From contig CAWEBU010000003.1 of the NCBI GenBank assembly GCA_963807405.1, positions 422,158 through 486,157 of the forward strand: a DNA stretch of 64,000 nucleotides, in the 5' to 3' direction. The translations under genes were made by a program, and so were the position numbers. Origin of the DNA: an uncultured Acidobacteriota bacterium (GTDB lineage Bacteria; Acidobacteriota; Vicinamibacteria; Vicinamibacterales; UBA2999). A model generated the notes under the pieces. That model had not been told where the DNA came from and did not search any database. It saw only the letters and a program-made list of their open reading frames with translations. This document shows positions 14,760 through 53,935 of the stretch, piece after piece. How positions within the stretch are numbered: the stretch's first letter is position 1; each line of letters opens with the position of its first letter.

Positions 14760-14884
14760 CGGGGTCTGTCACGGTCAGGAGTTGTAACGGGGTCTGTCAC
14801 CGTCTCCGCCCGACCCGATCCTTTGGGGGTGGTGACGGTGACAGACCCCGTTACAACTCCTGACCGTGACAGACCCCGTTACAA
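14754..14884. repeat. REP/REPIN cluster 2 (2 forward + 2 reverse)
   Basis: Forward copies at 14754 and 14782; reverse copies at 14838 and 14866. Confidence 0.92.
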
Positions 14885-16203: not shown

Positions 16204-16288
16204 GGGGTGTCTCCGGGGATGTCCCCGGGGAGATGTCTCCGGGGTCTGTCACCATCGTCAAATGTCTTCGTGACAGACCCCGTTACAA
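16204..16288. repeat. REP cluster 3 (degenerate forward units, one partial forward core, one full reverse copy)
   Basis: GGGGTCTGTCAC at 16241; full reverse copy at 16270-16288. Confidence 0.8.
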
Positions 16289-16295
16289 TTGGCCG

Positions 16296-16787
16296 ATGGC
16301 GCGGATCGTCGGTATCTGGGTGAAGCGGAGCCATGGCGGCGTCATGGACGCGCGCGAGGCCGGGCGGCTGGTCGAGGGACGGGGCCTCGAGGGCAACGCG
16401 ACCCAGGGCGGCCGCCGCCAGGTCACGATCATGGCGCTCGATCGCTGGCGCGCGCTGACCGCCCACCTGCCGGGTCCGCCCGACCCGGCGATCCGGCGCG
16501 CCAACCTGCTGGTCGAGGGCATCGACCTCGAGGACGCGCGCGGGCGCGTGCTGGCGGTGGGCGATGCGCGCGTGCGGATCTTCGGCGAGACCCGGCCCTG
16601 TCACCAGATGGACGAAGCCTGCCCGGGCCTGCTGGCGGCGCTCTCCCCGCCGTGGGGCGGCGGGGCGTTCGGCGAGGTGCTGACGGGGGGCGCCATCCAC
16701 GTCGGCAGCACGGTGGCGTGGGAGCCGGCGACGGCGACGGGCGCCGTCACAGCCCGAAGAACGCCATCCCCAGCCACGACCGGATGA
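16296..16787 (+). CDS. MOSC domain protein
   Basis: GLEGN, RQVTI, RRANLLVEG, ETRPCHQMD. Confidence 0.85.
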   Translation: MARIVGIWVKRSHGGVMDAREAGRLVEGRGLEGNATQGGRRQVTIMALDRWRALTAHLPGPPDPAIRRANLLVEGIDLEDARGRVLAVGDARVRIFGETRPCHQMDEACPGLLAALSPPWGGGAFGEVLTGGAIHVGSTVAWEPATATGAVTARRTPSPATTG

Positions 16788-17424
16788 TCTCGAGGTGCGG
16801 CTTGACGAGGAGCCGATTCGCCGCCGGGGCATCGGGCAACGTCACCTCCGGGACCTGCAGGCTGGTGTCGCGTGCCACCCGCTCCAGGCGACGCTCGAGG
16901 TCACGCGCGTCGTAGCGCACCGCGTCGAGACCGGCCGCCTGATACACCCGCAGGCGCACCCACGAGAACTCGTCGCGCGAGAAGCCCGCGGCGTTCATCG
17001 CCGCCACCTGCGCACGCCAGGCATCCAGATAGAGATCCGACAGGCCGGTCACGCCGTCCAGCAGTTCGGAGAGCGACGGCACGCGGGCCGGTTCGTCAGG
17101 CGCCCGCCGCGTCAGCTCGCGATAGCGGGCGGCAAAGGCCTCGCCGGGCGTGCCGAGCGCCGTGCGCACGGCCTCCTGCACGGTGATGAAGCGCGCCAGT
17201 TGATCGGCGGTGAGCTCTCCGGACGACGGCGGCTCGAAGGGATCGGTGTGGACCAGCTCGCGGTCGATGTCGACCGCGTCGCCGAGCCGCGCGACGCCGG
17301 CTTTCATGTCGGACACCGTCGTGACGATCGGCTCGACGTAGTTCCAGGCGAGGTAGCCGGTGACGCCGGCGACGGCGCCGAGCAGCAGGAGGCCGGACAG
17401 GCATCCCGCCATGAACTGTGTCAT
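16747..17424 (-). CDS. Hypothetical membrane-anchored protein
   Basis: N-terminal TM (GCLSGLLLLG), host-like codon usage, TACTAT-N6-ATG upstream. Confidence 0.7.
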   Translation of the reverse strand: MTQFMAGCLSGLLLLGAVAGVTGYLAWNYVEPIVTTVSDMKAGVARLGDAVDIDRELVHTDPFEPPSSGELTADQLARFITVQEAVRTALGTPGEAFAARYRELTRRAPDEPARVPSLSELLDGVTGLSDLYLDAWRAQVAAMNAAGFSRDEFSWVRLRVYQAAGLDAVRYDARDLERRLERVARDTSLQVPEVTLPDAPAANRLLVKPHLEIIRSWLGMAFFGL

Positions 17425-17458
17425 GGCGCGATAGTACCAGCGGCGTGCCCCGCGGCGC

Positions 17459-19939
17459 TCAGACCTCGCCGCGCATCGCCTCGGTCGGGTCGATGGTCGT
17501 CGCGCGGCGGGCCGGAATCGCGCTCGCCGCCACCGCCACGAGCACGAGCACCAGGCTGACGACCGCGAGCGTCAGCGGATCGGTCGGCGCCACCCCGTAG
17601 AGCAGCGAGCCGAGCGCCCGCGTCAGCGCGTAGGAGGCGACGAGCCCGACACCCAGACCTGCCGCGGCCATCACGAGTCCCTCACGAATCACCGCCCACC
17701 GCAGTTCCCCGGGCGCCGCGCCCAGGGCCATGCGAATGCCCAGCTCCCGGGTCCGCCGGGCCACGCTGTAGTTGAGCACGCCGTGCACGCCGACGGCCGC
17801 CAGCACGAGCGCCATCGCCGCGAACACCCCGAGCAGCAACGTCGCGAAGCGCTGCTCGCCGATCGACCGGGAGAAGGTGTCGGTCAGCGGCTCCACGCCG
17901 AAAACCGCCAGCTGCGGGTCACGGTCGTGAATCACCCGCGTGGCCGACGTCGCGAGCGTCGTCGGGTCGAGCGAGGTCCGGAGCAGCAGCACGCCGGCGC
18001 CGGAGGCGGAGGGCGCCTGGCTGAGCGGCACGTAGACGGCAATCGGCGACGGCTCGGTGACGCCCTGGAAGCGCTCGTCACGGGTGATGCCGACGATGGT
18101 CCGGTCGACGCCCCAGAACGACACCTGCTCGCCGAGCGGATCGCGGGTGCCGAAGAGGCGTCGGGCCGCCGTCTCGTTGATGAGCACCACCGGCGTTCCC
18201 GCCGTCTGGTCGCTCTCGGCCAGCGCCCGGCCCCGGGCCACACTCAGCCCGACCGTGTCGAAGTAGCCGGGCGACACCCGGCGCACCGAGATCTCGGGAA
18301 ACCGCTCGTCGCGTCGCCCGACGATGCCGAACGAGTTGGTGAAGCCTGGGTCCAGCGGATGGTTGCCGGCGATGGCCGCGGCCGAGACGCCGGGGAGCGC
18401 GCGTGCCGCCTCCAGCAGAGCGCGGTTGAAGGCGTGCTGCTCCTTGAAGTCGGGGAAGACGCGGAAGTCGGCCGGGTAGCGCGAGCTCGGCAACTGGAAC
18501 TCGGCCTTCAGCACGCCGGCCGACGAGAAGCCGGCGTCCACCTGCTGGATCTGCCACAGCGTCTGGATGAGGAGACCGGCGCCGGTGACGAGGACGACCG
18601 CCAGCGCCATCTCCGCGACGACGAGTGCCGTGCGCGTGCGCTGTGCCGTCACGCCGCCCGTGGCGCGCCCGCCGCCCTCGGCCGTGAGCGCCGTCTGCGG
18701 CTCGACGCCGAGCGCCTGCAGCGCCGGGACCAGGCCGAAGACGATGCCGGCCACGAGCGCCGCCAGCGCGGTGATGCCGAGCACCCGCAGGTCGATCGAC
18801 ACGGAATCGAGGCGCGGCAGGTTGGCCGGCGCCTGCGCCAGGAGCACGCGCAGCACCGCGAACGCCAGGGCCACGCCGGCCAGCGCCCCGGCCGCCGTCA
18901 TCACCAGCGTCTCGACGACCAGCTGGCGCGCCAGGCGCCACGCGCTCGAGCCGACCGACACGCGGATGGCGAACTCACGGCTGCGCGCGGCGCCCCGCGC
19001 GAGCAGCAGGTTGGCCACGTTGACGAGGGCCACGAGCAGGACGAGCGCGACGGCGCCCCACAACACGAGCAGCGCCGGACGGACGGGACCGAACACGACC
19101 GACTCGAGCGGCTCGACGAACACGCCGCGGCCGCGGTTCTCGGGAAAGGCCTGCTCGAGATCGGCGGCAATCGCCGCCAGCTCGGTCTGGGCGGCGGCCG
19201 CGGTCGCTGACGGCGCCAGGCGGCCCAGCACGAACAGCGGATGTGTCTGGCGCGGCCACTCCTCGACATCGGCCACGAGCGGGGTCCACACGTCGACGCC
19301 GACCCGCAACCCGCGATCCGCGAACGACCGGGCGTAGGCGGCCGACCCGAGCACCTGGTGGATGCCGAAGTCCGAGCCGTCCGCCACCACCCCGACGATC
19401 TCGTGCGGCAGGTCGTCGAGGTCGATCGTCTGGCCGACGATGTCGAGGCGCCGCTCGAACAGCCGGGCCCACAAGGCCTCGCTGATGACGGCGACCCGCT
19501 CCCGGCCCGGCTGCTCGTCGCCGGCACCGAACACGCGGCCGAGCCGCGTGGTCACGCCGACGAGCGGCAGGAACGACGACGACACCTGCAGCGAGGCCAG
19601 CCGGATCGGATCGCCCGCCGGCGGCGTCAGGTTCCGCTCGGTCGCCATGAAGGCGGCCAGGGACTGGAACTGACGGGTGCGGGCGCGGAAGTCGAGGTAG
19701 TCGGGCAGCGAGGCCGGTTCGCGCGTGGTGCCCGAGCCGCGGTCGGTCTCCCACACCATCATCACGCGGGCGGCATCCTCGATCGGCGTCCGCCTGAGCA
19801 GCACGCTGTCGACCACGCTGAAGACGGCCGCATTGAGGCCGATGCCGAGACCGAGGCTCAGCACGGCGGCCACGGCGAAGAGCGGCTGCGTGCGAAACTG
19901 GCGCAGCGCGAAGCGCAGGTCGGACAGAAGTCCTGTCAT
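17459..19939 (-). CDS. ABC permease, ADOP/MacB-FtsX duplicated type
   Basis: DLRFALRQ, LGLGIGLNAAVFS, NVANLLLAR, RRTRELGIRMALGA, PARRA..DP. Confidence 0.92.
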   Translation of the reverse strand: MTGLLSDLRFALRQFRTQPLFAVAAVLSLGLGIGLNAAVFSVVDSVLLRRTPIEDAARVMMVWETDRGSGTTREPASLPDYLDFRARTRQFQSLAAFMATERNLTPPAGDPIRLASLQVSSSFLPLVGVTTRLGRVFGAGDEQPGRERVAVISEALWARLFERRLDIVGQTIDLDDLPHEIVGVVADGSDFGIHQVLGSAAYARSFADRGLRVGVDVWTPLVADVEEWPRQTHPLFVLGRLAPSATAAAAQTELAAIAADLEQAFPENRGRGVFVEPLESVVFGPVRPALLVLWGAVALVLLVALVNVANLLLARGAARSREFAIRVSVGSSAWRLARQLVVETLVMTAAGALAGVALAFAVLRVLLAQAPANLPRLDSVSIDLRVLGITALAALVAGIVFGLVPALQALGVEPQTALTAEGGGRATGGVTAQRTRTALVVAEMALAVVLVTGAGLLIQTLWQIQQVDAGFSSAGVLKAEFQLPSSRYPADFRVFPDFKEQHAFNRALLEAARALPGVSAAAIAGNHPLDPGFTNSFGIVGRRDERFPEISVRRVSPGYFDTVGLSVARGRALAESDQTAGTPVVLINETAARRLFGTRDPLGEQVSFWGVDRTIVGITRDERFQGVTEPSPIAVYVPLSQAPSASGAGVLLLRTSLDPTTLATSATRVIHDRDPQLAVFGVEPLTDTFSRSIGEQRFATLLLGVFAAMALVLAAVGVHGVLNYSVARRTRELGIRMALGAAPGELRWAVIREGLVMAAAGLGVGLVASYALTRALGSLLYGVAPTDPLTLAVVSLVLVLVAVAASAIPARRATTIDPTEAMRGEV

Positions 19940-20036
19940 GTCACCCCACCCGGCGACTTAGATGGGCGGCCCGGTCAAAGGGTTGTGCCCGCCAGGAAGG
20001 CCATGCTACCCCGTCCGGAGGGCCGCCGGCCGGCCG

Positions 20037-22430
20037 TCAGTGCCGCAGCGCCACCATCGGATCGACGCGCGAGGCCCGCCGTGCAGGTATCGCCGCCGCC
20101 GCCAGGCCGGTGGCCAGCAGCAGCGCCGCCACGGCCAGGAACACGCGCGGGTCGGTGGCGCTGACCTGGAAGAACATCAGGCGCATGGCGCTCGCCAGCG
20201 CCACGGCGAGGCCGACGCCGAGGGCCACGCCGACGGCCACCTGCGAGGCGCCCTGCCGCAGCACCATCCACAGCACGTCGGCCCGTTCGGCGCCCATGGC
20301 CAGGCGCACGCCGATCTCCTGCGTGCGCTTGCTGACCGAGAACGCCATCACGCCGTAGAGGCCGACGGTGGCGAGGAACAACGCCGCCAGTCCGAAGACC
20401 GTGAACAGGGTGCCGAACACGCGCCAGGCCCAGGTGCTGTCGTCGAGCAGGCGCTGCACGGTCACGACGTTGTAGATCGGCAGGTTGCGGTCCAGACCGG
20501 AGACGGTCTGCCGCACCGCGCTCGTGAGCGCCAGCGGATCGCCCGCCGCGTGGACCAGGACACTCACCGACTGGCTCGGCCGCTGCGCGAGCGGCAGGTA
20601 GAGATGCTGCAGAAGGGACTCGCCGGGATCGATGTCGGCCACGTCCTGCACGATGCCGACGATGGTGTGCCACTCGCCCGATTCACTGCTGAACGTCCGC
20701 ACCTGGCGGCCGAGGGCGCCCTCGGGGAAGAAGCGGCGCTGGAACTCCTCGTTGACGACGGCCACCTTCGGTGCCTCGGCCCCGTCAGCCGCCGTGAACA
20801 CGCGCCCCTGGCGCGGGCTCATGCGCAGCACCTCGAAGAAGCCATCGGACACACTCGTGACCTTGGCCCGCGGGTAGTCGCGTTCGTCGGGAAAGGCCTG
20901 GCCCGGCAGCACGACCGCGATCTCGGGGGCGGTCGGCGGACTGGAGGTGGCCAGTGCCGCCCGGACCACGCCCGGCACGGCGCTGACGCCGTCGCGCAGC
21001 CGCTCGGCGAAACGCGCACGGCTGGGTCCATCGGGATACTCGGTGGCCGGCAGCGTGAGGCGCGCGGTCAGGACATCTCGCGTGGCGATCCCCGGATCGA
21101 ACGCGGTGACGTTGCGGATGCTCTGGACGACCAGGCCCGAGACGACCAGCAGCGCGAACGACAGGGCGACCTCGCCGGTGACGAGCGTGCGCGAGAGGCG
21201 GCCGATACGGAGACTGGTGGTGCCGCGGCCTTCGTCGTTCAGCAGCGGCGCGACATCGCCGCGCGAGGCACGCAGGGCCGGCACCAGCCCGGCGACGACG
21301 GTCGCGAGCCCGGTGATGGCCGTGACGAAGCCGAGCACCACGCCATCGAGTCGCACGTCGATCCAGAAGGGCGGACTGGTGTCGGTGATGCCACGGTTGA
21401 ACATCTCGGCGCCGGCCCAGGCGATGGCGACGCCGAGGGCGGCGCCAATCAGGGCCAGCAGCAGGACCTCGACCAGGGTCTGCCGGACGATCTGCGAGCG
21501 CAGGGCCCCGAGCGCGGTACGCACGGCCACCTCGCGCGTCCGGTCGGCCGCCCGCGCCAGGACCAGGTTGGCGACGTTGACGCAGGCGATGACCAGCACC
21601 AGCAGCACCGCCGCCAGCATGACGCTCAGCAGGGTCACGACCTCGGCGCCGATGAACTCCTCGACATAGGGCTTCACCTCCACGGTGAGGCCGTCGCGAC
21701 GCCGGGGATCGTCCGCCGCCACCTGCGCGGCAATCGTCGCCAGCTCGGCCGAGGCCTGATCGCGGGTGACGCCGTCGCGCAGACGGCCGATGACCTCGAC
21801 GGTGGGCCGCGTGTCCTTGCCCTCGAGGGCCGCGTTCACGGACAGGGCCATCCACAGCTCCTGCACCACGGGGTAGGCGAAACCCGGCGCCATCACGCCA
21901 ATCACCGTCATCGCCGTGCCGTTCACGCGCAACGACTGTCCCAGCGCGTCGGGCCGGCCCTGGAGGCGGTCGCGCCACAGCCGATCGCTGACGATGACGA
22001 CCGGCTCGGCGCCCGGTGCCCCGTCCGCATCACGGAAGTCGCGACCGAGCGTGGGCGTCGTTCTGAGCATCCGGAACGTGTCCGGCGTGATCCAGGCGCC
22101 GCGATACCGTTCGGGCGTGCCGTCGGGCCCGACCACGTTGGCGCTCGTCATGTAGCACGCCGTCAGGTACTCGAAGCTCGACTGGCGCTCGCGCCAGGCC
22201 GCGAACTCCCACTGCGTGGCATCGAGGTCGTCGCTCCCGGCGATGTCGAACGGAGCGGCGTGGAGGATGCGCTCGGATGCCTCGAACGGCAGGCCGCGCA
22301 GGACCGCCCCGTTCAGGATGCTGAACATCAGCGTGGTCAGGCCGATCCCGAAGGCGAGCGCCACGACGGCCAGGAGGGAGGTCATCGGCTGGCGGCCGAT
22401 CATGCGGAAGGCGAGCCGAAGGTCGGACAT
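20037..22430 (-). CDS. ABC permease, ADOP/MacB-FtsX duplicated type
   Basis: MSDLRLAFR, ACVNVANL, RTQEIGVRLAMGA, PARRASRVDP. Confidence 0.92.
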   Translation of the reverse strand: MSDLRLAFRMIGRQPMTSLLAVVALAFGIGLTTLMFSILNGAVLRGLPFEASERILHAAPFDIAGSDDLDATQWEFAAWRERQSSFEYLTACYMTSANVVGPDGTPERYRGAWITPDTFRMLRTTPTLGRDFRDADGAPGAEPVVIVSDRLWRDRLQGRPDALGQSLRVNGTAMTVIGVMAPGFAYPVVQELWMALSVNAALEGKDTRPTVEVIGRLRDGVTRDQASAELATIAAQVAADDPRRRDGLTVEVKPYVEEFIGAEVVTLLSVMLAAVLLVLVIACVNVANLVLARAADRTREVAVRTALGALRSQIVRQTLVEVLLLALIGAALGVAIAWAGAEMFNRGITDTSPPFWIDVRLDGVVLGFVTAITGLATVVAGLVPALRASRGDVAPLLNDEGRGTTSLRIGRLSRTLVTGEVALSFALLVVSGLVVQSIRNVTAFDPGIATRDVLTARLTLPATEYPDGPSRARFAERLRDGVSAVPGVVRAALATSSPPTAPEIAVVLPGQAFPDERDYPRAKVTSVSDGFFEVLRMSPRQGRVFTAADGAEAPKVAVVNEEFQRRFFPEGALGRQVRTFSSESGEWHTIVGIVQDVADIDPGESLLQHLYLPLAQRPSQSVSVLVHAAGDPLALTSAVRQTVSGLDRNLPIYNVVTVQRLLDDSTWAWRVFGTLFTVFGLAALFLATVGLYGVMAFSVSKRTQEIGVRLAMGAERADVLWMVLRQGASQVAVGVALGVGLAVALASAMRLMFFQVSATDPRVFLAVAALLLATGLAAAAIPARRASRVDPMVALRH

Positions 22431-22503
22431 GGGCTGCGATACGCACATCACCGGACGGTTGTTCCTCGCCGCGGACGGCCGCCCGGTCGGCTACAGTAGA
22501 GCG

Positions 22504-23085
22504 ATGAGCATGTCAGTCCGTTTCGTTCGCACCGTCGCCCTCGCGGCCGCCCTGGCCGCCGTGCTCACGCCGACCCCGGCCTCGGCCGACCTGCGGGCCA
22601 CCGCCTTTGCCGGCGCCACCCGCATCAACGACACCAACAAGGGCACCTACGGGGCCGCCGTCACCTTCGGGGGCCTGCTCGGCATCGAGTTCGACGCCTC
22701 GCGCATTGCGCTCGGCAGCCTCGACAACATCGACTTCGTCGACGTCAAGGCCAACGTCACGACCTACATGGGCAATCTCGTGCTGCGCGCACCGACCGGC
22801 CCGATCCAGCCCTACGCGTCGGCCGGTGTCGGCGTGGTGCGGGTCACCGGCGACGTCAACGTGCCGTTCGTCGGCAGCCTGGTGAGTGCCAGCGCCCAGG
22901 ACGTGGCGTGGAACCTGGGCGGCGGCGTCTACATCCTGCCGACGCCGACCTTCGGCCTGCGCGCCGACGTGCGCCGCTTCCAGACCGGCGACGTGTCGTG
23001 GGACGACATCACGGGCCTGGGCGATCTGCCGCTGCCGAAGTTCGACTTCTGGCGGGCGACGGCCGGCGTCACGATCAAGTTCTGA
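22504..23085 (+). CDS. Outer-membrane beta-barrel protein
   Basis: Signal peptide, QPYASAGVG, WNLGGG, C-terminal Phe (GVTIKF). Confidence 0.8.
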   Translation: MSMSVRFVRTVALAAALAAVLTPTPASADLRATAFAGATRINDTNKGTYGAAVTFGGLLGIEFDASRIALGSLDNIDFVDVKANVTTYMGNLVLRAPTGPIQPYASAGVGVVRVTGDVNVPFVGSLVSASAQDVAWNLGGGVYILPTPTFGLRADVRRFQTGDVSWDDITGLGDLPLPKFDFWRATAGVTIKF

Positions 23086-23112
23086 CCCCGCCTCCCCGCC
23101 TCCGCCTCCCGA

Positions 23113-25128
23113 TTACTCCAGGTTGTCGATCGGCACCGGCGCCAGCGTGTCGGCCGGCGTGAAGCCGAAGACCTTGCCGTAGAAGTAGAGCTCCGACTCG
23201 AGGGCGCGCACGATGTTCTCCGCCTTGCGGAACCCATGCTGCTCGCCTTCGAAGGTCACGTAGGAGACCGGCAGGCCCTTCTTCCGTACGGCGTCGGCCA
23301 TCATCTCCGACTGCTGCGGCGGCACGACCTTGTCGTCGAGGCCCTGCAGCAGGATCAGCGCGCAGTTCAGACGGTCCACGAAGTGGATGGGCGAGCGGTC
23401 GCGATAGGTGGCCTGCATCGCCGGATACGGTCCCACCAGCGAGTCCATGTAGCGGGACTCGAACTTGTGCGTGTCGGTGGCCAGCACTTCGAGGTCGCTG
23501 ATGCCGTAGTAGCTGGCGCCGGCCTTGAACGTGTCGTGGAAGGCGAGCGCGGCCAGCGTCGTGTAGCCGCCGGCGCTGCCACCGCGGGTGATGAGGCGCG
23601 CCGGGTCGGCCTTGCCCGCCGCCACCAGGTAGTTGGCGGCGTTGACGGCATCCCGCACGTCCACGATCCCCCACTGCCCGTTGAGGCGGCGGCGATAGGC
23701 GCGGCCGTAGCCGGTGCTGCCGCCGTAGTTCACGTCGACGACCGCGAAGCCACGCGTCGTCCAGAACTGCACCTCGGAATCGAAGACCGCGTCGGTCGCC
23801 CCGGTCGGCCCGCCGTGGCTGAGCACGAGCAGCGGCGGCAGCGTGCCGGCCGGCGCCGTGAACCCCGGGTTGGTCGGCGGGTAGTAGAAGGCGTGGGTCT
23901 CCTGGCCGGCGCTGTCGAAGGTCACCGCTTCGGGCGCCGCCACGAAGGCCGCGTCAAGGGTGTCCTGGCGCGATCGCCGCAGGATCTCGGCTTCGACACC
24001 GGCGAAGCTGACCCGCGTCACGGCCGGACCCTCGGTGGATGAGCCGCCCACGAAGTAGGCCTCGCGCGAGGTGGCCACCAGCGATTCCAGCGGATCGAGC
24101 GTCAGGTCGAGCGGCTCCATCCGCCGCGGCTCGAGCGACAGCAGGCCCATGCGCCAGCGTCCCTGCTCGGTCCACGTCGCCACCAGCCGGGTGGCCGACT
24201 GGAAGGCGTAGGTCGTCATGCCGAAGGACCACTGCGGCTTGCCGAAGTCAGCCTCCATGGGATGGATCGGCTCGACGGCGCTGCCCCGCTGCCGGTAGAG
24301 ATTCCACCAGCCCGTACGGTCCGACACGAAGAAGAGCACGCCATCGGGCGACCATGACGGCTGGAACACCGATTCGTCGGCGCCGCCGGCGACCAGCGTC
24401 GGCGTCAGCGGCCGGCCCGCGGCGTCGAGGTCGGCCACGTAGAGCGCGGTGCCGTCCCACGGCATGTTGGGATGGCTCCACTGCAGCCACGCCAGGCGCC
24501 GGCCGTCGGGGCTGAGGATCGGATCGGAGTAGAAGTCCGCGCCCGACGCCAGGACGGTGCCCGCCGAGGGCGCCCCGCCGCCCAGGGGCACGGCGACGAT
24601 CGCCGCAGGCGGCTGACCGTCGCCGCCGGTGTGGTCCTCGCGCACGCACAGCAGACGGCTGCGCGCGGCATCGACGCGGCACTGCGCGTAGAAGTAGCCC
24701 TCGGGCGTGAGGGCCTCTTGCGGCCGGCCGGCGGCGAACGCGTAGAGCTTCTGATCGGCGAAGTTCGAGGCATAGACGACGCCCCGGTGCACGGTGTAGG
24801 CGGCACCGCCGTACTCGTGCACCCGGCTGCGCACGTTGAAGTCGCGCGGCGAGACGTCGACCGGCGGCGCCCCCGCCCGCTTGCGCACGAGCACGTTGCG
24901 TCCGCCTTCCGAGGCGCGGCCTTCGAGCCAGTAGAGATCGTCGCCGTCGACCACGATCTGCCCGAGCCTGAGCGCGCCGGCCGTGGCCCGCGCCGCCGTG
25001 AGCGGCGAGGCCCAGGCGCCGTAGGGCGCTTCTGCCGGGGCCGGCCCGCTGGTTGTCGTCGTGTCGTTGCCGCACCCCACCGCCATGGTCAGAACCCCCA
25101 CCGCCGCCGCGCATCGCATGGCAGACAT
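23113..25128 (-). CDS. S9 family peptidase (prolyl oligopeptidase/acylaminoacyl peptidase), lipoprotein
   Basis: HGGPT, GGSAGGY, QGLDDKVVP, EQHGF; lipobox AVGC. Confidence 0.93.
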   Translation of the reverse strand: MSAMRCAAAVGVLTMAVGCGNDTTTTSGPAPAEAPYGAWASPLTAARATAGALRLGQIVVDGDDLYWLEGRASEGGRNVLVRKRAGAPPVDVSPRDFNVRSRVHEYGGAAYTVHRGVVYASNFADQKLYAFAAGRPQEALTPEGYFYAQCRVDAARSRLLCVREDHTGGDGQPPAAIVAVPLGGGAPSAGTVLASGADFYSDPILSPDGRRLAWLQWSHPNMPWDGTALYVADLDAAGRPLTPTLVAGGADESVFQPSWSPDGVLFFVSDRTGWWNLYRQRGSAVEPIHPMEADFGKPQWSFGMTTYAFQSATRLVATWTEQGRWRMGLLSLEPRRMEPLDLTLDPLESLVATSREAYFVGGSSTEGPAVTRVSFAGVEAEILRRSRQDTLDAAFVAAPEAVTFDSAGQETHAFYYPPTNPGFTAPAGTLPPLLVLSHGGPTGATDAVFDSEVQFWTTRGFAVVDVNYGGSTGYGRAYRRRLNGQWGIVDVRDAVNAANYLVAAGKADPARLITRGGSAGGYTTLAALAFHDTFKAGASYYGISDLEVLATDTHKFESRYMDSLVGPYPAMQATYRDRSPIHFVDRLNCALILLQGLDDKVVPPQQSEMMADAVRKKGLPVSYVTFEGEQHGFRKAENIVRALESELYFYGKVFGFTPADTLAPVPIDNLE

Positions 25129-25229
25129 CTGGGCATCTTACTTGCGGAGCCGTGGCGGCACCCGGGCTTCCGCGCGTGGGTCCTGGCGCCTGTTCCCGGT
25201 TCCTCGTGCCGTGCAGTTATAGTGTCGGC

Positions 25230-28358: not shown

Positions 28359-28388
28359 CGCCGATGCCGCCCGCCGGGGCCTCCGCGC

Positions 28389-29289: not shown

Positions 29290-29372
29290 CCGCGGATGCC
29301 CGTCTGACCGCCCACCCGGACCGTCCGTCCGACGGCCGGCGGGGCCGCGGACGGTGGCCGTATACTCGCGCC

Positions 29373-31245: not shown

Positions 31246-31300
31246 CGCGGCTGGCGCGGCCTCGCCAGCCGCGGTGCCGCCGGCAACGGCAGCGGCCGGT

Positions 31301-37496: not shown

Positions 37497-37533
37497 GTGG
37501 AGGCGATGATAGCGCGAGCCGACGCTTGCCCGG

Positions 37534-38361: not shown

Positions 38362-38437
38362 CGCAACGCTTCATGCTAGCCGGTCGCGGCCGGGGGAACC
38401 AGGGCGCCTCGCCGGCGCTATACTCGGGCCGTTCCCC

Positions 38438-41029
<2,592 letters not shown>

Positions 41030-41096
41030 GTCGGCGGGCCACCCTCACTACAATGGCGCCTGTTCGTTCCACTCGCTCGGCATTGAGAGGCTGATC

Positions 41097-41945: not shown

Positions 41946-41964
41946 AGCGCCACCGGGCCGGCGC

Positions 41965-43611: not shown

Positions 43612-43685
43612 CGATTCCTCCCCTGTCCGTGACGCGCCGGACACGGCCGATCATACTGGAAAGAGATACGTGGGCCGGCCGCTGG

Positions 43686-44654: not shown

Positions 44655-44867
44655 GTGGTGATCCTCGTGGCAGGCGAGAGCCGCGGCCAAAGACACGCGG
44701 ACCGGCGTGGCGGAGCGAGCGGCGCGGACGAGGTGAGGACAGCAGATGGCAGGACGACTCTCCCAGAGGGCCACCTCCATCGGTCGCGCGCCGCGGCGGA
44801 CGCGACGGGAGATGTTGGTGCGCGCTGCCTACTATATGCGGCGACGCTCCGCGGGTATGCTGTCGCG

Positions 44868-46340: not shown

Positions 46341-46526
46341 ACCGGCACCTGGTCCATCCCGGCGGCGCCGAGCGGCTACAATCGTCGCGATGCGACGCCG
46401 TGCTGTCGGTGCCGTGAGCGCGTTGACACCGCCGGCATCGCTCGCCCTCACACTCCCCCTCGGCCTTTCGCGACGCGACGCCGGCGCGGACACCCGCGGC
46501 ACGACCGCGTCCGACGTGGCGGCCAC

Positions 46527-47852
46527 GTGACGCGAATCGCCGGCTGGGCGGCGGTGGCCATCGCCGCGCGCCTGCTCGTGTCGTGGGCGGCGGCCGAGGC
46601 CGGCGTCTTCGCCGACATGACGCAGTATCACGAGCGCGCCGTGCACCTGGCCGCGAGCGGCTCGCTGTATCCCGATGCGCTGCGCGGGCCCGGCTATCCG
46701 GCGCTGCTCGCCCTCACCTATTCCCTGTTCGGCGTCTCGTTCTGGTGGGCACGGGTGGCCAACGCCCTCATCGGCGGGGTCCTCACGCTGCTCACTGGCT
46801 GGCTCGCCCGGCGGGCCGGGGCCGGCGAGCGGGCCTGGATCGCGAGCGCCCTCGTGGCCGTCTACCCGGCGCTCGTGCTGTCGTCCGTCTACCTGATGCC
46901 GGAAGGCCTCTACACGCTGCTGGCCGTGCTGGTGCTGCTGCTCGTGCGCCATCGCTCGCTGCCGATCGCGGCGGCGGCGGGCGTCGTCGCGGGAGCGGCG
47001 ATCCTGACCCGCTCGGTAGGCGTGACGCTGGTCGTGGTGGCGGGCGCCGTGCATGCGTGGACGCTGGTGACGGGCGCAGCCTCTCCGCGGGTCGCAGGCG
47101 CACGGCTGGGGGTGTTCGTCGGCGCGTGCGTGCTGGTGCTGGCGCCGTGGCTGGTCTTCACGTCGCGGGTGGCCGGCGGGCCGCTGCTCGACACGACCAG
47201 CGGGATGAACGTGCTGCTCGGCAATCACGCCGGCGCCACCGGCCGGCTCGACATGGCGGACGACGTGCCCCTGCGGCAGGCCCACGTGGTGGGCGCGACC
47301 AGCGAGGCCGACGCCAACGCTCGGGCCCTCCGTGCGGGCGTCGCGTGGGCGGTGGCGCATCCGGCGGCGTCGCTGCGCCTGGCTGGCGCCAAGCTCGGCT
47401 ATCTGTTCGGTCTCGAGGGCCGCGAGCACGCCTGGGGCTACTCGGTGGGCTACTTCGGGGCGCGCCGCACGACGACCGTGACGGCGTGGGGCGGGCTGCT
47501 CCTCGTGTCGTTCCCGTTGCTGGTGGTGGGTGCAGTACTCGGCCTGGTCCGCGCCCGCGGCCCGTGGCAGCCCATCCACGTGGCGCTCGCCGCCTTCGTC
47601 ATCGCCACCGCCGCCCTGCACGTGGTCAGCTTCGGCGAGAGCCGCTTCCATCTGCCGCTCGTGCCGGTGTTCGCCGTGGCCGCGAGCCTCGGCGCGGGCT
47701 CCGTGGCCTCGGCCGGACGCGGGCGGCTGGTGATGGGAGTCGTGGTCGTCGCCGTGCTGGCGCTCGTGTGGGCGAGGCAGGCGCCGGAGCTGCTGGACGC
47801 GCTCGCGGCCCTGCGCGCCCCGAACGGCTGGACCACGCCCCGCCCGTATTAG
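46527..47852 (+). CDS. GT-C fold glycosyltransferase (ArnT/PMT family 39-like)
   Basis: Multi-TM; D..YH, R.PGYP, ESRFHLP. Confidence 0.75.
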   Translation: MTRIAGWAAVAIAARLLVSWAAAEAGVFADMTQYHERAVHLAASGSLYPDALRGPGYPALLALTYSLFGVSFWWARVANALIGGVLTLLTGWLARRAGAGERAWIASALVAVYPALVLSSVYLMPEGLYTLLAVLVLLLVRHRSLPIAAAAGVVAGAAILTRSVGVTLVVVAGAVHAWTLVTGAASPRVAGARLGVFVGACVLVLAPWLVFTSRVAGGPLLDTTSGMNVLLGNHAGATGRLDMADDVPLRQAHVVGATSEADANARALRAGVAWAVAHPAASLRLAGAKLGYLFGLEGREHAWGYSVGYFGARRTTTVTAWGGLLLVSFPLLVVGAVLGLVRARGPWQPIHVALAAFVIATAALHVVSFGESRFHLPLVPVFAVAASLGAGSVASAGRGRLVMGVVVVAVLALVWARQAPELLDALAALRAPNGWTTPRPY

Positions 47853-47908
47853 CCCGGGGCGGACGTCGACCGTGGGGCCCGGGTCAGGGGCCCGGTCAGG
47901 GGTCCGGG

Positions 47909-49573
47909 TTACCGCTCGGTTCGCTTGTAGCCGCGGCCGCGCAGCGGTTTCCCCGGACGCGCCCCGGTGTGCTCGCCCTGGTCAATCACGAGCACGCCGT
48001 TGACCAGCACGTAGGGCACGCCCCGGGCGTACGACTTCGGCCGCTCGAACGAGTTGGTCTCGCCCACGGTCGCCGGATCGAAGATGGCGACGTCGGCCGC
48101 GTAGCCGGTCTTCAGCAATCCGCGATCGGTCAGTCCGAGGATGCGCGCCGGCAGGCCCGTCATCTTCCGCACGGCGTCGGGCAGCGTCAGCACGCGCTCC
48201 TCGCGCACGTAGTGCCCGAGCACGCGGACGTTGGTCGAGTAGTTGCGCGGATGCGGCACGCCAGGCGCGTCGAGGTTGATGGCCGACCCGTCGCTGGCCA
48301 CCGCCACCCACGGCAGGCGCATCACCGTGCGCACGTCGTCCTCCGACATGGTGTGGAAGATGCCGCTGACGTTGCCGCCCTCCTCCGCCATGATCTCGAT
48401 GCAGGTGTCCATCGGATCGGCGTCGCCGCGCAGCTTCGCGATCTCGGCGATGCGCTTGCCCTGATATTGCTGGTTCTTCGCGGTGCGGGCCCGCGCCAGC
48501 GCGATGCCGTCCCAGCCGCCGTGCTCGATCGCCCACGTGGCGAAATCCTTGTCGGTCTTCAGGCGCTGGCGGGCGGCGGGATCCTTGAGGCGCGCGGCGA
48601 ACTTGTCCGGACCGCCCTCGCGGATCCACAGCGGAAAGAACGCACTCCAGCCGTGGAACATGGCCGTGTAGGGATACTGGTTGGCCGTGACGTCGAGGCC
48701 GCGGTCCCTGGCGCTCTCGATCTGGGCGATGTACTTGCCGATGGTGCCCCAGAGCGGCACGCCGCGAATCTTGAAGTGGAAGATGTGGACCGGCATCTTC
48801 GCCTGCGCCGCCACGCGGATGGCGTAGTCGAGCTCGCGCGTCTGCTCGTTGCCTTCGCTGCCGGTGTGCGACGTGTAGTTGCCGCCGTAGCCGGCCACGG
48901 TGCGCGCCATCTCGAGCACCTCTTCGGGATGCTCGGGGCCGCCGCTCTCGAAGCGCGTCACCAGCCCCCAGGCGCCTTCCTCCATCGAGCGCGCGACGTA
49001 GCCCGTCATGGCCTTGCGCTGGGCGGGGGTGGACTCAGCGCGGTCGTAGCCCATGACGACGCGGCGCACCTGCTCGGAGGCGATGTGCGCGATCGTGTTG
49101 ATCGAGATGCCCTGCGTCTCGAGCCGGGCGAAGTACTCGGTGAAGGTGCGCCAGTCGGGGGTGACGCCATCGCCGCCCGCCTCCTCGAGATGGTCGCGCG
49201 GCGCCGCCGACGTGCTCTCGCCGGTGACGTCGAGCGTGACGCCCTGCCGCACCTTGCTCTGGGCCGTGCCGTCGGCGACGAGCGGCATCTCCGAATGGGT
49301 GTGCAGGTCGATGAAGCCGGGCGCCACGACCAGGCCGGTGGCGTCCACGGTGCGCCGTGCCGGCTGGCCGGCCAGGGCGCCGATGGCAACCACCCGGTCG
49401 CCGCGGATGCCGACGTCCGCCCGCACCGCCGCCGCGCCGGTGCCGTCGAGCACCTGGCCGCCGGTGATGAGGACGTCGAAGGGAGGGGCCTGGCCCGAGG
49501 TGGACGCCGTCCACGCCGCCACCACGGCCGTCAGCATCGCCCCGGTCCACCGCGCGCGCATCGTCAGGTGCAT
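47909..49573 (-). CDS. N-acyl-D-amino-acid deacylase (D-aminoacylase)
   Basis: APGFIDLHTH, YPYTA, SDG, HPR, GYAADVAIFD; GGAGG RBS. Confidence 0.92.
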   Translation of the reverse strand: MHLTMRARWTGAMLTAVVAAWTASTSGQAPPFDVLITGGQVLDGTGAAAVRADVGIRGDRVVAIGALAGQPARRTVDATGLVVAPGFIDLHTHSEMPLVADGTAQSKVRQGVTLDVTGESTSAAPRDHLEEAGGDGVTPDWRTFTEYFARLETQGISINTIAHIASEQVRRVVMGYDRAESTPAQRKAMTGYVARSMEEGAWGLVTRFESGGPEHPEEVLEMARTVAGYGGNYTSHTGSEGNEQTRELDYAIRVAAQAKMPVHIFHFKIRGVPLWGTIGKYIAQIESARDRGLDVTANQYPYTAMFHGWSAFFPLWIREGGPDKFAARLKDPAARQRLKTDKDFATWAIEHGGWDGIALARARTAKNQQYQGKRIAEIAKLRGDADPMDTCIEIMAEEGGNVSGIFHTMSEDDVRTVMRLPWVAVASDGSAINLDAPGVPHPRNYSTNVRVLGHYVREERVLTLPDAVRKMTGLPARILGLTDRGLLKTGYAADVAIFDPATVGETNSFERPKSYARGVPYVLVNGVLVIDQGEHTGARPGKPLRGRGYKRTER

Positions 49574-49593
49574 GGTCTTGCCTCCGCGCGCGA

Positions 49594-49647
49594 TTGTAAC
49601 GGGGTCTGTCACGGTAAGGGTTTGTAACGGGGTCTGTCACGGTCACC
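49594..49647. repeat. REP cluster 4 (2 forward copies only)
   Basis: Copies at 49594 and 49622, in a divergent intergenic region. Confidence 0.9.
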
Positions 49648-49742
49648 AAAGCCTCTGCCCCCGTGGCATCGGGAGGGGCGGGGCAGATGGCGTGGGTGGC
49701 GGATTCTGCGACACTAGAGCCGTGACTCCAAGGTTCCTCCCC

Positions 49743-52543
49743 ATGCGTACGACCCTCCGTCGGTTCGTCCTCGTCTCCACCTCCACCGTGCTGGCCCTGG
49801 CGGCGGCCGTCACCCTCCTCGGGCAACCGGCGCGCGTCACGACGCCGCGTCTCACGGCCCCCGAGGCGTTCTTCGGCCACCCGATCGGTGCCGACTACGT
49901 GCTGCCGAACTACACGAAGTTCACGGAGTACGTGCGGCTGCTCGACAAGGAGTCCGACCGCATGGTCGTCCAGTCGATCGGCAAGACGGCCGAGGGTCGC
50001 GAGCAGTTGATGGCCATCATCACGCGCCCCCGAGAACTTTGCGAAGCTCGATCGCTACCGCGAGATCGCGCGCCGGCTCGCCCGCGCCGAGGGCCTCACC
50101 GACGACACCGCCCGCGCGCTCGCGAGAGAAGGCAAGGCCGTCATCTGGATCGACGGCGGCCTGCACGCCACCGAGGTGCTCGGCGCGCAGCAGCTGCTCG
50201 AGACCATCTGGCAGTTCGCCAGCAAGACCGACGAAGAGACGCTGCGTATCCTGCGCGACACGATCATCCTGGCCGCGCACGCCAATCCGGACGGCATGGA
50301 GCTGGTCTCCGACTGGTACATGCGCAAGCCGACACCCACCGAGCGCAGCACCGGACAGATCCCGCGGCTCTACCAGAAGTACGTCGGCCACGACAACAAC
50401 CGCGACTTCTACGCGATGAACCAGCCGGAGAGCACCAACATCAACCGCGTGCTCTACCGCGAGTGGTATCCGCAGATCGTCTACAACCACCATCAGACGG
50501 GTCCGACCGGCACGGTGATGTTCTCGCCGCCGTTCCGCGATCCCTTCAACTACGCCTACGACCCGCTCGTCATCAACACCCTCGATCAGGTGGGCGCGGC
50601 CATGCACGCGCGCTTCGACGCCGAAGGCAAGCCCGGCGTGACGACGCGATCGGGCTCGAACTACTCCACCTGGTGGAACGGTGGCCTGCGCACGATGGTC
50701 TACTTCCACAACCAGGTGGGACTGCTCACCGAGACGATTGGCAACCCGACGCCCGAGCAGATCGGCTTCGTGCCCGATCGCCTGATCCCGCGCGGCGACT
50801 ACGCGGCCCCGATTGCGCCGCAGACCTGGCACTTCCGTCAGTCGGTCGACTACTCGCTGACCGCCAACTACGCCGTGCTCGACTTCGCGCAGCGTTACCG
50901 CGAGACGCTGCTCTACAACATCTATCTGATGGGCCGTAACGCCATCCGGCGCGGCTCGACCGACACCTGGACCGACTACCCGAAGCGGGTCGCCCAGGTG
51001 AAAGCCGAGATCGCCAGGGACATGAAGACCGAGGCCAGCGATCCGCGCATGGTGGCGGGCGGCCGCGCCCAGACGGTGCCAGCGAAGTACTTCCAGCTGC
51101 TGCGCAAGCCCGAGTGGCGCGACGCGCGGGCCTACGTCGTGCCGGCCGACCGCGGCGACTTCCTCACCTCGACCAGGTTCGTGAACGCGCTGATCAAAGC
51201 CGGCGTGGTCGTGCATCGCGCCACGGGACCGTTCAGCGCGGGCGGCACGCAGTATCCGGCCGGCTCGTTCGTGGTCAAGGCAGCGCAGGCCTTCGGTCCA
51301 CACGTCCTCGACATGTTCGAACCGCAGGATCACCCGAACGACTTCCAGTATCCGGGCGGACCGCCGATTCCGCCGTACGACAACGCGGGCTGGACACTGG
51401 CCTTCCAGATGGGCGTCGTCTTCGACCGGCATCTCGAGACCGTGGACGGGCCGCTCGAGGCGCTGACCGATCTGGCCAGACCGGCGCCGGGCACCGTGTC
51501 GTCCCCGGCCGGCACGACCGGCTACGCCATCGCCCACAAACACAACGACGCGTTCATCGTCGTGAATCGCCTGCTCAAGGCCGGCGACGAGGTCTACTTC
51601 GTGGCCGATCGCCGCTGGCAGAGCACGGACGGCACGGGCGCCATCTACGTGCCGGCCAGGCCGTCGACGGCGGCCGTGCTGCAGAAGGCCGCGACCGACC
51701 TCGGCATCAGCGCGGTGGGCGTGACGGCACGGCCGGGCGGCACGCTGCACAAGCTGCGCAAGCCGCGCATCGGTCTGTGGGATCAGTACGGCGGCTCGAT
51801 GCCCTCGGGACACGTCCGCTGGCTGCTCGAGCAGTTCGAGTTCGACTTCGAGGTCGTGTTCCCGCAGACGCTCGATGCCGGCAACCTGAACGCGAAGTAC
51901 GACGTGCTGCTGTTCCCCGATGGCGGCATCCCCGAGAACGCGGGCGGCGGAGGCGGGTTCTTCGGGCGTCAGCCGAAGGCCGAAGAGATCCCGGAGCAGT
52001 ATCGGCGCGCATCTCGGCAGCGTGACGATCGACAAGACCGTGCCACGCCTCAAGCAGTTCGCCGAGGCCGGCGGCGTGCTGGTGGCGTTCGGCGGCTCCG
52101 CGGTGCTCGGGCATCATCTTGGTCTGCCGGTGCGCGACCATCTGGTCGAGGTCACGCCGGCTGGCGTCGAGCGCGCGCTGCCGCGCGACAAGTACTACGT
52201 GCCGGGTTCGATCCTGCGGGTGGCGGTGGACAACACGTCGCCGCTCGGATTCGGCTTCGGGACCGAGGTCGACGTGCTGTTCGAAAACAGTCCGGTGCTG
52301 GAGCTGGCCCCGAACGCCGCGCTCGCGGGCGTGCGGCCGGTGGCGTGGTTCGGCGACGAGCCGCCGCTGCGGTCAGGCTGGGCGTGGGGTCAGCACTACC
52401 TCCGCGGAGGGGTCGCCGCGGTCGATGCCTCGCTCGGCAAGGGCCGGGTGCTCCTGTTCGGCCCGGAGATCACGTTCCGCGCCCAGCCGCACGGCACGTT
52501 CAAGTTCCTGTTCAACAGCATCTTCGCTGGCACCGCCGAGTAA
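49743..52543 (+). CDS. M14 zinc carboxypeptidase family protein; frameshifts near 50025 and 52008
   Basis: GLHATE, NPDG, GHDNNRD, NHHQ; C-terminal HGTFKFLFN. Confidence 0.88.
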
Positions 52544-52544
52544 C

Positions 52545-52625
52545 TTGTAACGGGGTCTGTCACCACCATCATTTGTAACGGGGTCTGTCACCACCACGAT
52601 TTGTCACGGGGTCTGTCACGGTCAC
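52545..52625. repeat. REP cluster 5, left flank of the transposase (3 forward copies)
   Basis: Copies at 52545, 52573 and 52601 (the last is the variant TTGTCAC...). Confidence 0.92.
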
Positions 52626-52682
52626 GCGACCGGGCAGATCCTGCAACTGCGCGAACGGCCCGGGACTTGCGAGGCGTCGACC

Positions 52683-53309
52683 ATGCCTCGCGTATCCAGG
52701 ACAGCTGTTGAACGCTCCATCGTGCACGTCGTGAACCGCGGCAACGACCGGCGACGCCTCTTCGCGTTCCGTGGTGACTACGACGTCTTTGTCGGGATTC
52801 TGACCGCTGGCCAACGCCGGGAAGGACTCCGGCTCCTTGGCTATGTGGTGATGCCCAATCACTGGCACCTCGTGGCCTGGCCCGAGTCGGTCCAGCAGCT
52901 GTCGCGATTCATGCAACGCGTGACGTCGGCTCACGCGGCAATTGTTCGCACCCACAGTCACTCCACGGGTCACGGACATGTCTATCAGGGTCGCTACCAC
53001 GCGACGGTAGTGACCAACGACGACCAGTTGATGCGCACGCTGCGCTACGTCGAGGCGAACCCGGTGCGCGCCGGGCTCGTGGCACGCGCGGAGTTCTGGC
53101 GGTGGTCGAGCCTCGACGAGCGCCTTGGCGCGTTACGCCTCATCACCGACCCGCCGGTTCCGTTGCCAGCCCTCAAGGCGTGGCTCGATCTCGTCAATAC
53201 GCCGATGTCCGCGGCCGACCGGCCAGACACTCCCCGCAGGCCTCGACTGGGCGTAGCGGTCGCCATCGACGCGGCGACGAGTGCCGCCGCCGATGCCGAC
53301 CGGCAGTGA
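52683..53309 (+). CDS. REP-associated tyrosine transposase (RAYT, IS200-like Y1/HUH)
   Basis: HVVNRGN, MPNHWHL (HUH), YQGRY, catalytic YVEANPVRAGLV, WRWSS. Confidence 0.9.
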   Translation: MPRVSRTAVERSIVHVVNRGNDRRRLFAFRGDYDVFVGILTAGQRREGLRLLGYVVMPNHWHLVAWPESVQQLSRFMQRVTSAHAAIVRTHSHSTGHGHVYQGRYHATVVTNDDQLMRTLRYVEANPVRAGLVARAEFWRWSSLDERLGALRLITDPPVPLPALKAWLDLVNTPMSAADRPDTPRRPRLGVAVAIDAATSAAADADRQ

Positions 53310-53358
53310 CCGTGACAGACCCGATTACAAATGATGACGGTGACAGACCCCGTTACAA
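53306..53358. repeat. REP cluster 6, right flank of the transposase (2 reverse copies)
   Basis: GTGACAGACCCGATTACAA (variant) at 53312; consensus copy at 53340. Confidence 0.92.
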
Positions 53359-53365
53359 TTGCGGC

Positions 53366-53935
53366 ATGAATTACTACTCCGGCAAAGACCTGGCCGGTGC
53401 CTTCCGCACCGTCCGTCAGAACACCATTCAGACCGCGCAGGACATCCCCGACGACCAGTACGGCTTCGCCGCCGCCGACGGTTGCATGACGGTGGGCGCG
53501 ATGCTGGCCCACCTGGCCGCCACCACCAGCTTCCATCACCAGATGCACGGCATCGACAAGAAGTCGGACGTCTCCATGCAGGACTTCGGCGGCTACATGG
53601 CCGCGGTGCAGCAGATCCAGGGCACGCTCACGACCAAGGCGACCATCCTCGACGCGCTGAAGACGCGCGGCGACGAGTTCGCCAGCTGGCTCGAGACCCT
53701 CACCGACGCGCAGCTCGGCGAGCACGTGACCTTCCCGGCCGGCATGCAGCCGCCGAGCAAGTGCCGCTTCGAGATGCTGCTCGGCGCCAAGGAACACGAG
53801 ATGCACCACCGCGGGCAGCTGATGGTGATCCAGCGCCTGCTCGGCATCACGCCGCACCTCACGCGCCAGCGTCAGGAAGCGATGGCCGCCCGCGCGGCCG
53901 CCGCCGCCGCACCAGCCGCGACACCCGCCAGCTAA
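53366..53935 (+). CDS. DinB family protein
   Basis: TVGAMLAHLA, EHEMHHRGQL. Confidence 0.88.
   Translation: MNYYSGKDLAGAFRTVRQNTIQTAQDIPDDQYGFAAADGCMTVGAMLAHLAATTSFHHQMHGIDKKSDVSMQDFGGYMAAVQQIQGTLTTKATILDALKTRGDEFASWLETLTDAQLGEHVTFPAGMQPPSKCRFEMLLGAKEHEMHHRGQLMVIQRLLGITPHLTRQRQEAMAARAAAAAAPAATPAS

What the first reader, a model, noticed from the sequence alone, without database searches (positions are those of the whole stretch)
16270..53368. Repeat ends coincide with -10 promoter boxes of adjacent genes
Seen: the outward end GTTACAA plus a flanking T gives TACAAT exactly 6 nt before the ATG of the MOSC gene (16284-16289, ATG 16296) and of dinB (53354-53359, ATG 53366). On the minus strand the copy at 49594 gives TACAAT just upstream of the GGAGG RBS of the D-aminoacylase. 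The first two match the host's own TAnnnT-N6-start geometry. Inference: either the element targets TACAA in existing -10 boxes, or it acts as a portable promoter part that rewires neighbouring genes.
Basis: partly seen in the sequence, partly recalled or inferred. Interest (0 to 1): 0.7.

Follow-up and report, generated by a model that had tools for sequence, protein, structure and literature searches.

The report
Repeat ends absorb existing promoter boxes
The ends of a repeat family tied to a tyrosine transposase overlap the host's predicted -10 promoter boxes far more often than chance, but related genomes without the repeat keep a box at the same place, so the repeat likely creeps up to and absorbs existing promoters rather than bringing new ones.

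Summary
TACAAT lies 6 nt before the MOSC and dinB start codons and 19 nt before the amidohydrolase start, in each case overlapping the outward end of a 24-nt repeat. The genome has 172 units in 57 loci, and they flank its only Y1 tyrosine transposase (52683-53309), as in TIRtron/REPIN-type systems. A TACAnT forms at 14 of 27 promoter-facing ends against 5 of 64 ends facing 3' ends (p 9e-6). The 'portable promoter' reading is not supported. Orthologues of those 14 genes show a pre-existing TACAAT in 7 and another box overwritten in 4 (in register in 3). In 2 the conserved promoter motif lies elsewhere, and 1 is unresolved. On the other strand the same end supplies the stop codon at 12 of 64 ends. 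Best reading: ends spread outward until a host signal stops them, and fuse where their TACAA or TAA can replace it. Some preference for TACAAT sites is likely. No transcription data were available. The scan had already noted this repeat family elsewhere in this genome, but not the promoter overlap.

The parts
16235..16287 (.). Inverted pair of repeat units (left one degenerate); the right unit 16264-16287 ends in GTTACA
   Evidence: folds as a 13-bp stem, z -3.0
16284..16289 (+). TACAAT, predicted -10 box shared with the repeat end, 6 nt before the MOSC ATG
   Evidence: TACAAT upstream in 18 of 18 genus loci
16296..16787 (+). MOSC-domain gene, predicted leaderless
   Evidence: PF03473 E 6.7e-7
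47909..49573 (-). Amidohydrolase (D-aminoacylase-like) gene with GGAGG ribosome site
   Evidence: PF07969; best NCBIfam hit NF006560 below its cut-off
49593..49598 (-). TACAAT shared with the repeat end; orthologues in G013 and G017 have TACCCT at the same 19-nt spacing
49595..49646 (-). Two tandem repeat units pointing at the amidohydrolase gene
52546..52625 (-). Three tandem units, left inverted repeat of the transposase gene, 2 nt after the stop of the M14 peptidase gene
52683..53309 (+). Y1 (HUH) tyrosine transposase, 208 aa, the only PF01797 match in the genome; motifs NHWH, YVEANP, WRWSS
   Evidence: NF047646 76.6 bits, cut-off 80
53306..53357 (+). Two tandem units, right inverted repeat of the transposase gene
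53354..53359 (+). TACAAT, predicted -10 box shared with the repeat end, 6 nt before the dinB ATG
   Evidence: TACAAT upstream in 17 of 17 genus loci
53366..53935 (+). DinB-family gene, predicted leaderless
   Evidence: PF12867, PF05163
6155..6281 (.). Four-unit inverted array between convergent genes, ends 3 and 7 nt from the stops
14755..14883 (.). Four-unit inverted array; its left end supplies the TAA stop of the rhodanese gene, which ends one codon earlier in most relatives
60293..60374 (.). Three-unit inverted array, ends not fused to a box
62538..62647 (.). Four-unit inverted array; left end supplies a TAA stop, right end lies about 28 nt before a separate TAGATT box
   Evidence: 126-nt hairpin, -106 kcal/mol, z -16.7

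Best explanation
The repeat is a dispersed inverted-repeat family that flanks the genome's only Y1 tyrosine transposase and is likely spread by it; its outward ends likely advance into neighbouring DNA until they meet a host signal that cannot be lost, and fuse with predicted -10 boxes that were already there. Shown: the 24-nt unit ends in GTTACA followed by A-N-T; the ends hug stop codons and -10 boxes; the boxes are older than the repeat; where the native box differed it now reads TACAAT or TACATT. Inferred: new units are added outward with loss of adjacent DNA, and the product survives when the end restores the signal. TACAA gives five of six bases of a box on one strand, and TGTAA gives a stop codon on the other. 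Native TACAAT boxes are favoured, either by short homology with the end or by better survival. Host -10 boxes show no clear conserved -35 motif, so DNA upstream of the box would be replaceable at low cost.
For: Transposase flanked by inverted tandem units, single copy. The two 99%-complete genus members without a PF01797 match have no repeat copy. Enrichment of T at promoter-facing ends, 14 of 27 against 5 of 64. Orthologues of all 14 genes examined: native TACAAT in 7; another box replaced in 4 (TACCCT, TATGAT and CAGAAT at matching spacing, TATACT at a different spacing). Intermediates: at C6:3645562 the repeat ends 8 nt before an intact TATGAT in G009, G015 and G018, and is fused with TACAAT in G000 and, in another clade with a variant unit, in G006 and G016; the 4-nt spacer inside the G000 array equals the outer flank of G009 and G018. 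52 of 64 3'-facing ends lie within 15 nt of a stop, and 12 of them supply it. Eight of 99 ends carry extra short terminal copies, and two distant transposase relatives have tandem GTAACGGG ends too. No clear -35 motif upstream of 343 free boxes.
Against: No start site was measured, so the boxes are predictions. Mobilisation by the transposase and outward advance are inferred from species-level comparisons (about 55-90% protein identity), not from strain pairs. Three incomplete genomes carry repeats without a PF01797 match (G004, G005, G008). Two of the 14 TACAnT ends are not the conserved promoter motif (C6:2129645, C9:1057720), and one (C6:1401190) is unresolved, so creation of a new box is not excluded there. 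One native TACAAT stays unfused about 14 nt from an end (C6:2151132). Gene ends and starts come from my own dicodon model, and 3 of 99 ends fall inside a called frame.
Confidence: 0.6

Rival explanations
1. Sequence-specific targeting: the transposase inserts or converts the repeat directly at TACA(A), or at T-rich dinucleotides, which in a 70% G+C genome are concentrated in -10 boxes and stop codons. The end's GTAA could act as a guide, as GTAG does in REPs.
For: At least 8 of 27 promoter-facing ends neighbour a native TACAAT against about 8% expected (p 0.001). About one in five leaderless TACAAT boxes is fused. 80 of 91 ends read TT directly 5' of GTAAC. In a group 3 REP system, changing the tetranucleotide changed the cleavage dinucleotide (PMC8266576, passages).
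Against: Four fused sites had other hexamers natively. Only 2 of 45 stops near an end have a native TGTAA/TGTAG context, and 14 of 45 have GTAA/GTAG against 21% genome-wide. Unfused intermediates exist. The guide rule has not been shown for this transposase class.
Confidence: 0.25
2. Portable promoter: the repeat carries an outward-reading promoter that creates new transcription for adjacent genes, like the Correia element's Black promoter.
For: The end carries five of six bases of a good -10 box. At the threonine-aldolase-like gene a non-canonical CAGAAT became TACATT, and at the amidohydrolase TACCCT became TACAAT, so expression could change. One site is unresolved.
Against: In 11 of 14 cases a box already existed upstream of the orthologous gene, and in no case was creation from nothing shown. 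No -35-like hexamer lies 16-18 nt upstream inside the unit (read). Elements avoid divergent regions (1 of 42 against 16% genome-wide).
Confidence: 0.08
3. Coincidence: an A/T-rich repeat end meets A/T-rich promoter DNA by chance.
For: Two of the three TACATT ends are chance look-alikes. T occurs at 14% of internal junctions.
Against: Enrichment p 9e-6 in this genome, the same pattern in five relatives, and exact register with conserved boxes.
Confidence: 0.03

Closest known systems
TIRtrons / TIRYT (Di Nocera et al. 2013, PMC3733652; equated with TnpA-Y1 subclass 2.1 by Quentin et al. 2018, PMC6006769)
   Same: Y1 transposase gene flanked by inverted repeats; repeat copies dispersed as singles, pairs and clusters; core close to GGGGWSAS; enzyme motifs NHxH, Y---NP and a downstream SS; Acidobacteria are among the described hosts.
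   Different: Core reads GGGGTCTG (one mismatch). No C-terminal helix-turn-helix was found, whereas all 20 subclass 2.1 TIRYT examples have one. Overlap of the ends with -10 boxes is not described in the sections I read.
REP / REPIN / RAYT systems (groups 2 and 3)
   Same: Single-copy transposase flanked by the repeat; inverted pairs forming long hairpins; enrichment between convergent genes (20 of 42 against 16%); ends that supply stop codons, as GTAG REP ends supply TAG (PMC3733652, section 15).
   Different: Foot is GTAA, not GT[AG]G; hairpins form between inverted units; units are stacked at a 28-nt period; NF047646 score is just under its cut-off.
Correia repeat enclosed element of Neisseria, Black promoter (PMC2649163)
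   Same: The element end holds a partial -10 box that flanking DNA completes.
   Different: The Correia element also brings a -35 and generates new promoters. Here no -35 is evident, no target duplication is found, and the box predates the element.
TANNNT leaderless promoters as in Deinococcus-Thermus (PMC12340547)
   Same: TAnnnT a few bases before the start codon, with no clear -35 in this genome.
   Different: Function is shown there by experiment; here it is only predicted from spacing and conservation.

Membership tests
TIRtron / TIRYT | Y1 transposase with HUH motif and catalytic tyrosine | tested here: met
   PF01797 E 1.8e-11; NHWH and YVEANP in the translation
TIRtron / TIRYT | Gene flanked by inverted repeats that are not GTAG REPs | tested here: met
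   three units left, two right, inverted
TIRtron / TIRYT | GGGGWSAS motif in the inverted repeats | tested here: inconclusive
   GGGGTCTG, one mismatch; relatives at the same slot have exact GGGGTCAG; consensus
TIRtron / TIRYT | Dispersed single, paired or clustered copies | tested here: met
   172 units in 57 loci
TnpA-Y1 subclass 2.1 | C-terminal helix-turn-helix domain (all 20 TIRYT examples in this subclass) | tested here: not met
   Pfam finds only Y1_Tnp in 208 aa; statement
TnpA-Y1 subclass 2.1 | Placement in the subclass by clustering or tree | not tested
   only motifs compared with Table 1 of PMC6006769
Canonical REP/REPIN-RAYT | GT[AG]G tetranucleotide at the foot of the repeat | tested here: not met
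   foot is GTAA
Canonical REP/REPIN-RAYT | Inverted pairs forming hairpins in intergenic space | tested here: met
   42 of 57 loci two-sided; folds
Canonical REP/REPIN-RAYT | REP-associated tyrosine transposase model above cut-off | tested here: not met
   NF047646 76.6 bits against 80
Canonical REP/REPIN-RAYT | Cleavage or mobilisation of the repeat by the enzyme | not testable with these tools
   needs an in vitro assay
MITE / Correia-type element | Target-site duplication | tested here: not met
   direct flank matches in 1, 3 and 0 of 38 two-sided elements at 2, 3 and 4 or more nt; mirror matches in 18, 11 and 6
MITE / Correia-type element | -35 hexamer inside the element in register with the terminal -10 | tested here: not met
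   no TTGACA-like hexamer 16-18 nt upstream, by reading
Leaderless TANNNT promoter | TAnnnT 6-8 nt before the start codon, as a genome-wide peak | tested here: met
Leaderless TANNNT promoter | Transcription start at the start codon | not testable with these tools
   no RNA run was listed

The most novel reading that the evidence does not exclude
The end of this HUH-transposase repeat is a two-faced repair patch. It reads TAA (stop) on one strand and TACAA (-10 box) on the other, so it can delete into genes and promoters and restore the signal in register. Repeated independently in different lineages, this rewrites diverse native boxes (TATGAT, TACCCT, CAGAAT) to TACAAT or TACATT and changes expression of the neighbours, while whole repeat families are swapped at fixed sites when the resident transposase is replaced.
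Probability: 0.25. Interest if true: 0.65.

Novelty: new variant of a known kind. Interest (0 to 1): 0.4.

Why it matters
How REP-like repeats spread without harming compact genomes is still open. This family gives dated snapshots: empty, adjacent and fused alleles at the same promoter, and stops and boxes replaced in register. The natural allele series at C6:3645562 makes the effect on expression directly testable. It also links a little-studied transposase class, for which one survey found no REP-like partners, to a repeat family of more than 100 units. It does not show a new way of creating promoters.

Tried and rejected
RNA evidence: no RNA holder listed, so nothing is concluded from it. 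Target-site duplication: tested and not found; only the variable base N of the A-N-T flank matches between the two arms, in mirror fashion (20 of 38 against 10.5 expected), which I cannot fully explain. Idea that the GTTACAA tail was captured from the dinB promoter beside the transposase: weakened, because two distant transposase relatives (L223, L227) already have GTAACGGGG ends; the extra T was not traced. Idea that the repeat mimics a host extended -10 motif: only a weak G at -2 and C/G at -1 are seen. Idea that TACA is the target everywhere: native TGTAA/TGTAG at 2 of 45 nearby stops. My first, greedy gene calls gave wrong frames at several ends and were replaced by a local frame score. 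Part of the output was cut from view; I rely only on the visible part. Literature: a search for TIRYT gave two relevant papers; searches for REP/REPIN with promoter, Pribnow or leaderless and for repeats in this group listed nothing on this overlap, judged from listings only; the library lacks most subscription journals. Supplements and figures of PMC3733652 and PMC6006769, which list individual TIR sequences, were not read and may hold this repeat's relatives.

Full report
Observation. The three sites are as described. TACAAT lies 6 nt before the ATG of a MOSC gene (16284-16289) and of a DinB gene (53354-53359), and on the minus strand 19 nt before the ATG of an amidohydrolase gene (49598-49593), 7 nt before GGAGG. 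In each case TACAA is the end of a repeat unit. The host geometry is real: with my own dicodon gene calls (4782 genes, 2506 with ATG), TAnnnT peaks 6 nt before the ATG (99 cases; 57 and 55 at 7 and 8 nt; about 11 per offset further away). No clear -35 motif is seen upstream of 343 such boxes away from repeats. In Deinococcus such motifs were shown to act as -10 regions of leaderless genes (PMC12340547, abstract). Here they remain predictions, and no RNA run was listed.

The repeat. The unit is GTGACSGTGACAGACCCCGTTACA, usually followed by A-N-T and one more base, which gives a 28-nt period. The genome holds 172 units in 57 loci (180 candidates, 8 dropped with weak clusters). Most loci are inverted arrays with the TACA ends pointing outward, and they fold into long hairpins. 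Of 42 two-sided loci, 20 lie between convergent genes, 21 between co-directional genes and 1 between divergent genes, against 16%, 69% and 16% genome-wide. The genome's only PF01797 gene lies in this window at 52683-53309, with three units on its left and two on its right. The 18-mer core is found in 16 of 18 other genomes of the genus and in none of 22 outside it. The two 99%-complete genus members without it (G013, G017) also lack a PF01797 match; three incomplete genomes have repeats without a match. Record titles of the closest transposase relatives name Acidobacteriota and Vicinamibacterales.

Is the overlap more than chance? I classed each of 99 outward ends by the coding frame 70-370 nt beyond it, without regard to the flanking base. 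Eight degenerate ends were left out. The base completing TAnnnT is T at 14 of 27 promoter-facing ends and 5 of 64 ends facing 3' ends (p 9e-6); for TACAAT alone the counts are 11 of 27 and 3 of 64. Internal junctions have T in 9 of 65. An in-frame ATG follows 6-8 nt after the box at 7 of 14 T-ends and 0 of 13 others. In G001, G009, G015, G016 and G018 an ATG follows at that distance after 17 of 62 T-ends and 9 of 301 other ends. Those genomes are related and the frames were not checked, so this shows repetition, not independent proof.

Which came first? I examined orthologues for all 14 T-ends. TACAAT is native in 7: MOSC (18 of 18 loci, 9 with a 6-nt spacing and 9 with a leader), dinB (17 of 17 loci), an aminopeptidase at C6:2193920, C6:2129726, pxpA, a CocE/NonD hydrolase at C9:901242 and C9:174669. 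For the first six the repeat-free genomes G013 or G017 show it; for the last, G003, G005 and G007. Not every orthologue has it: several pxpA orthologues follow directly on an upstream gene without a box, and several at C6:2129726 have another arrangement. In 4 a different box is native: TACCCT at the same 19 nt for the amidohydrolase (2 orthologues only), TATGAT or TAGAAT at C6:3645562, CAGAAT at the same 6 nt for a threonine-aldolase-like gene (3 of 4 orthologues), and TATACT at a longer spacing at C6:3397045 (3 of 5). In 2 the TACATT at the repeat end is not the conserved motif: TATCGT or TACAAT lies about 22 nt further on at C6:2129645, and at C9:1057720 the one clear orthologue shares another motif and no TAnnnT. 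C6:1401190 is unresolved. No case shows a box created where none existed, so the portable-promoter reading is not supported.

How the ends get there. At C6:3645562 three states exist: no repeat of this family (G005, G007, G008, G010, G011, G017), repeat ending 8 nt before an intact TATGAT (G009, G015, G018; G001 has AATGAT there) and repeat fused as TACAAT (G000; G006 and G016 with a variant unit). A tree from seven marker proteins separates G000 from G006 and G016 with high support, so two independent fusions are the simplest reading. The G000 allele equals the G009 allele with one more unit added after the same four flank bases, in place of the first part of the promoter (a single example). 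The other strand shows the same behaviour: 52 of 64 3'-facing ends lie within 15 nt of a stop and 12 supply the TAA themselves. The rhodanese gene in this window ends one codon later, inside the repeat, in G000 and G001 than in most relatives. GTAG REP ends are known to supply TAG in the same way (PMC3733652, section 15). No target duplication is found, but the variable base N matches between the two arms in 20 of 38 elements against 10.5 expected. Fused boxes are followed by T in 8 of 11 cases against 1 of 23 free TACAAT boxes, so the A-N-T belongs to the element. From this I infer outward addition of units with loss of adjacent DNA, stopped by selection at stops and boxes, with fusion kept where the end restores the signal. 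Native TACAAT is over-represented next to ends (at least 8 of 27 against about 8%, post hoc p 0.001). That could reflect short homology, direct targeting or better survival, and I cannot separate these.

Comparison with known systems. The arrangement fits TIRtrons: tyrosine transposase genes flanked by inverted repeats with a GGGGWSAS motif, some forming dispersed families, with an Acidobacteria group (PMC3733652, section 16). Quentin et al. equate these with subclass 2.1 and found no REP-like sequences near it (PMC6006769, parts 2-4 of 10 and passages). The enzyme here has the subclass motifs but no helix-turn-helix hit, and the repeat core differs by one base, so membership is likely but not settled. 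It fails two marks of canonical REP-RAYT systems (GT[AG]G foot; NF047646 76.6 against 80 bits). It works partly like the Correia element's Black promoter, where flanking DNA completes a partial -10 (PMC2649163, passages), but it brings no evident -35 and the box is older. PMC5581495 and PMC8266576 were seen as passages only. My searches (listings) showed no paper on this overlap.

Verdict. A real, genus-wide pattern, best read as a known kind of repeat absorbing existing promoter boxes and stop codons. The in-register overwriting of native boxes, seen more than once, is the new part; its effect on expression is untested. Interest 0.4.

Noticed in passing
window 52546-53357 and loci L198-L209: The same slot after the M14 peptidase gene holds different Y1 transposase lineages in related species, each flanked by its own repeat variant. 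G009's enzyme is 85% identical to this one, while that of its sister G011 is 55%. Orthologous intergenic sites elsewhere often carry the variant of the resident enzyme, which suggests cassette replacement followed by turnover of repeats at fixed sites.
   Followed up: partly
window 49743-52543: The M14 peptidase gene has two frameshifts against an intact relative; the aminopeptidase at G000:C6:2193929 is also split. Probably assembly errors, not checked with reads.
   Followed up: partly
L223:1120-1155, L227:1125-1165: Distant transposase relatives (about 40% identity; titles Parcubacteria and Saccharibacteria) have tandem GTAACGGG(G) ends, like the short extra copies at 8 of 99 ends here.
   Followed up: partly
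window about 14930-14965 and G000:C9 near 1057690: A motif CAAC...CGTCCAAC is conserved upstream of two genes across relatives and resembles an ECF sigma promoter (recalled, not tested); in G001 the repeat end abuts it directly.
   Followed up: no
L018 and L031 (G018), L019 (G007): The second MOSC locus in G018 is identical upstream to that of G007, which may be contamination of one assembly.
   Followed up: no
loci L083, L111, L116, L149: Several relatives carry a different low-complexity tandem repeat (GGGACTAG-like) at sites where other species have the inverted repeat.
   Followed up: no
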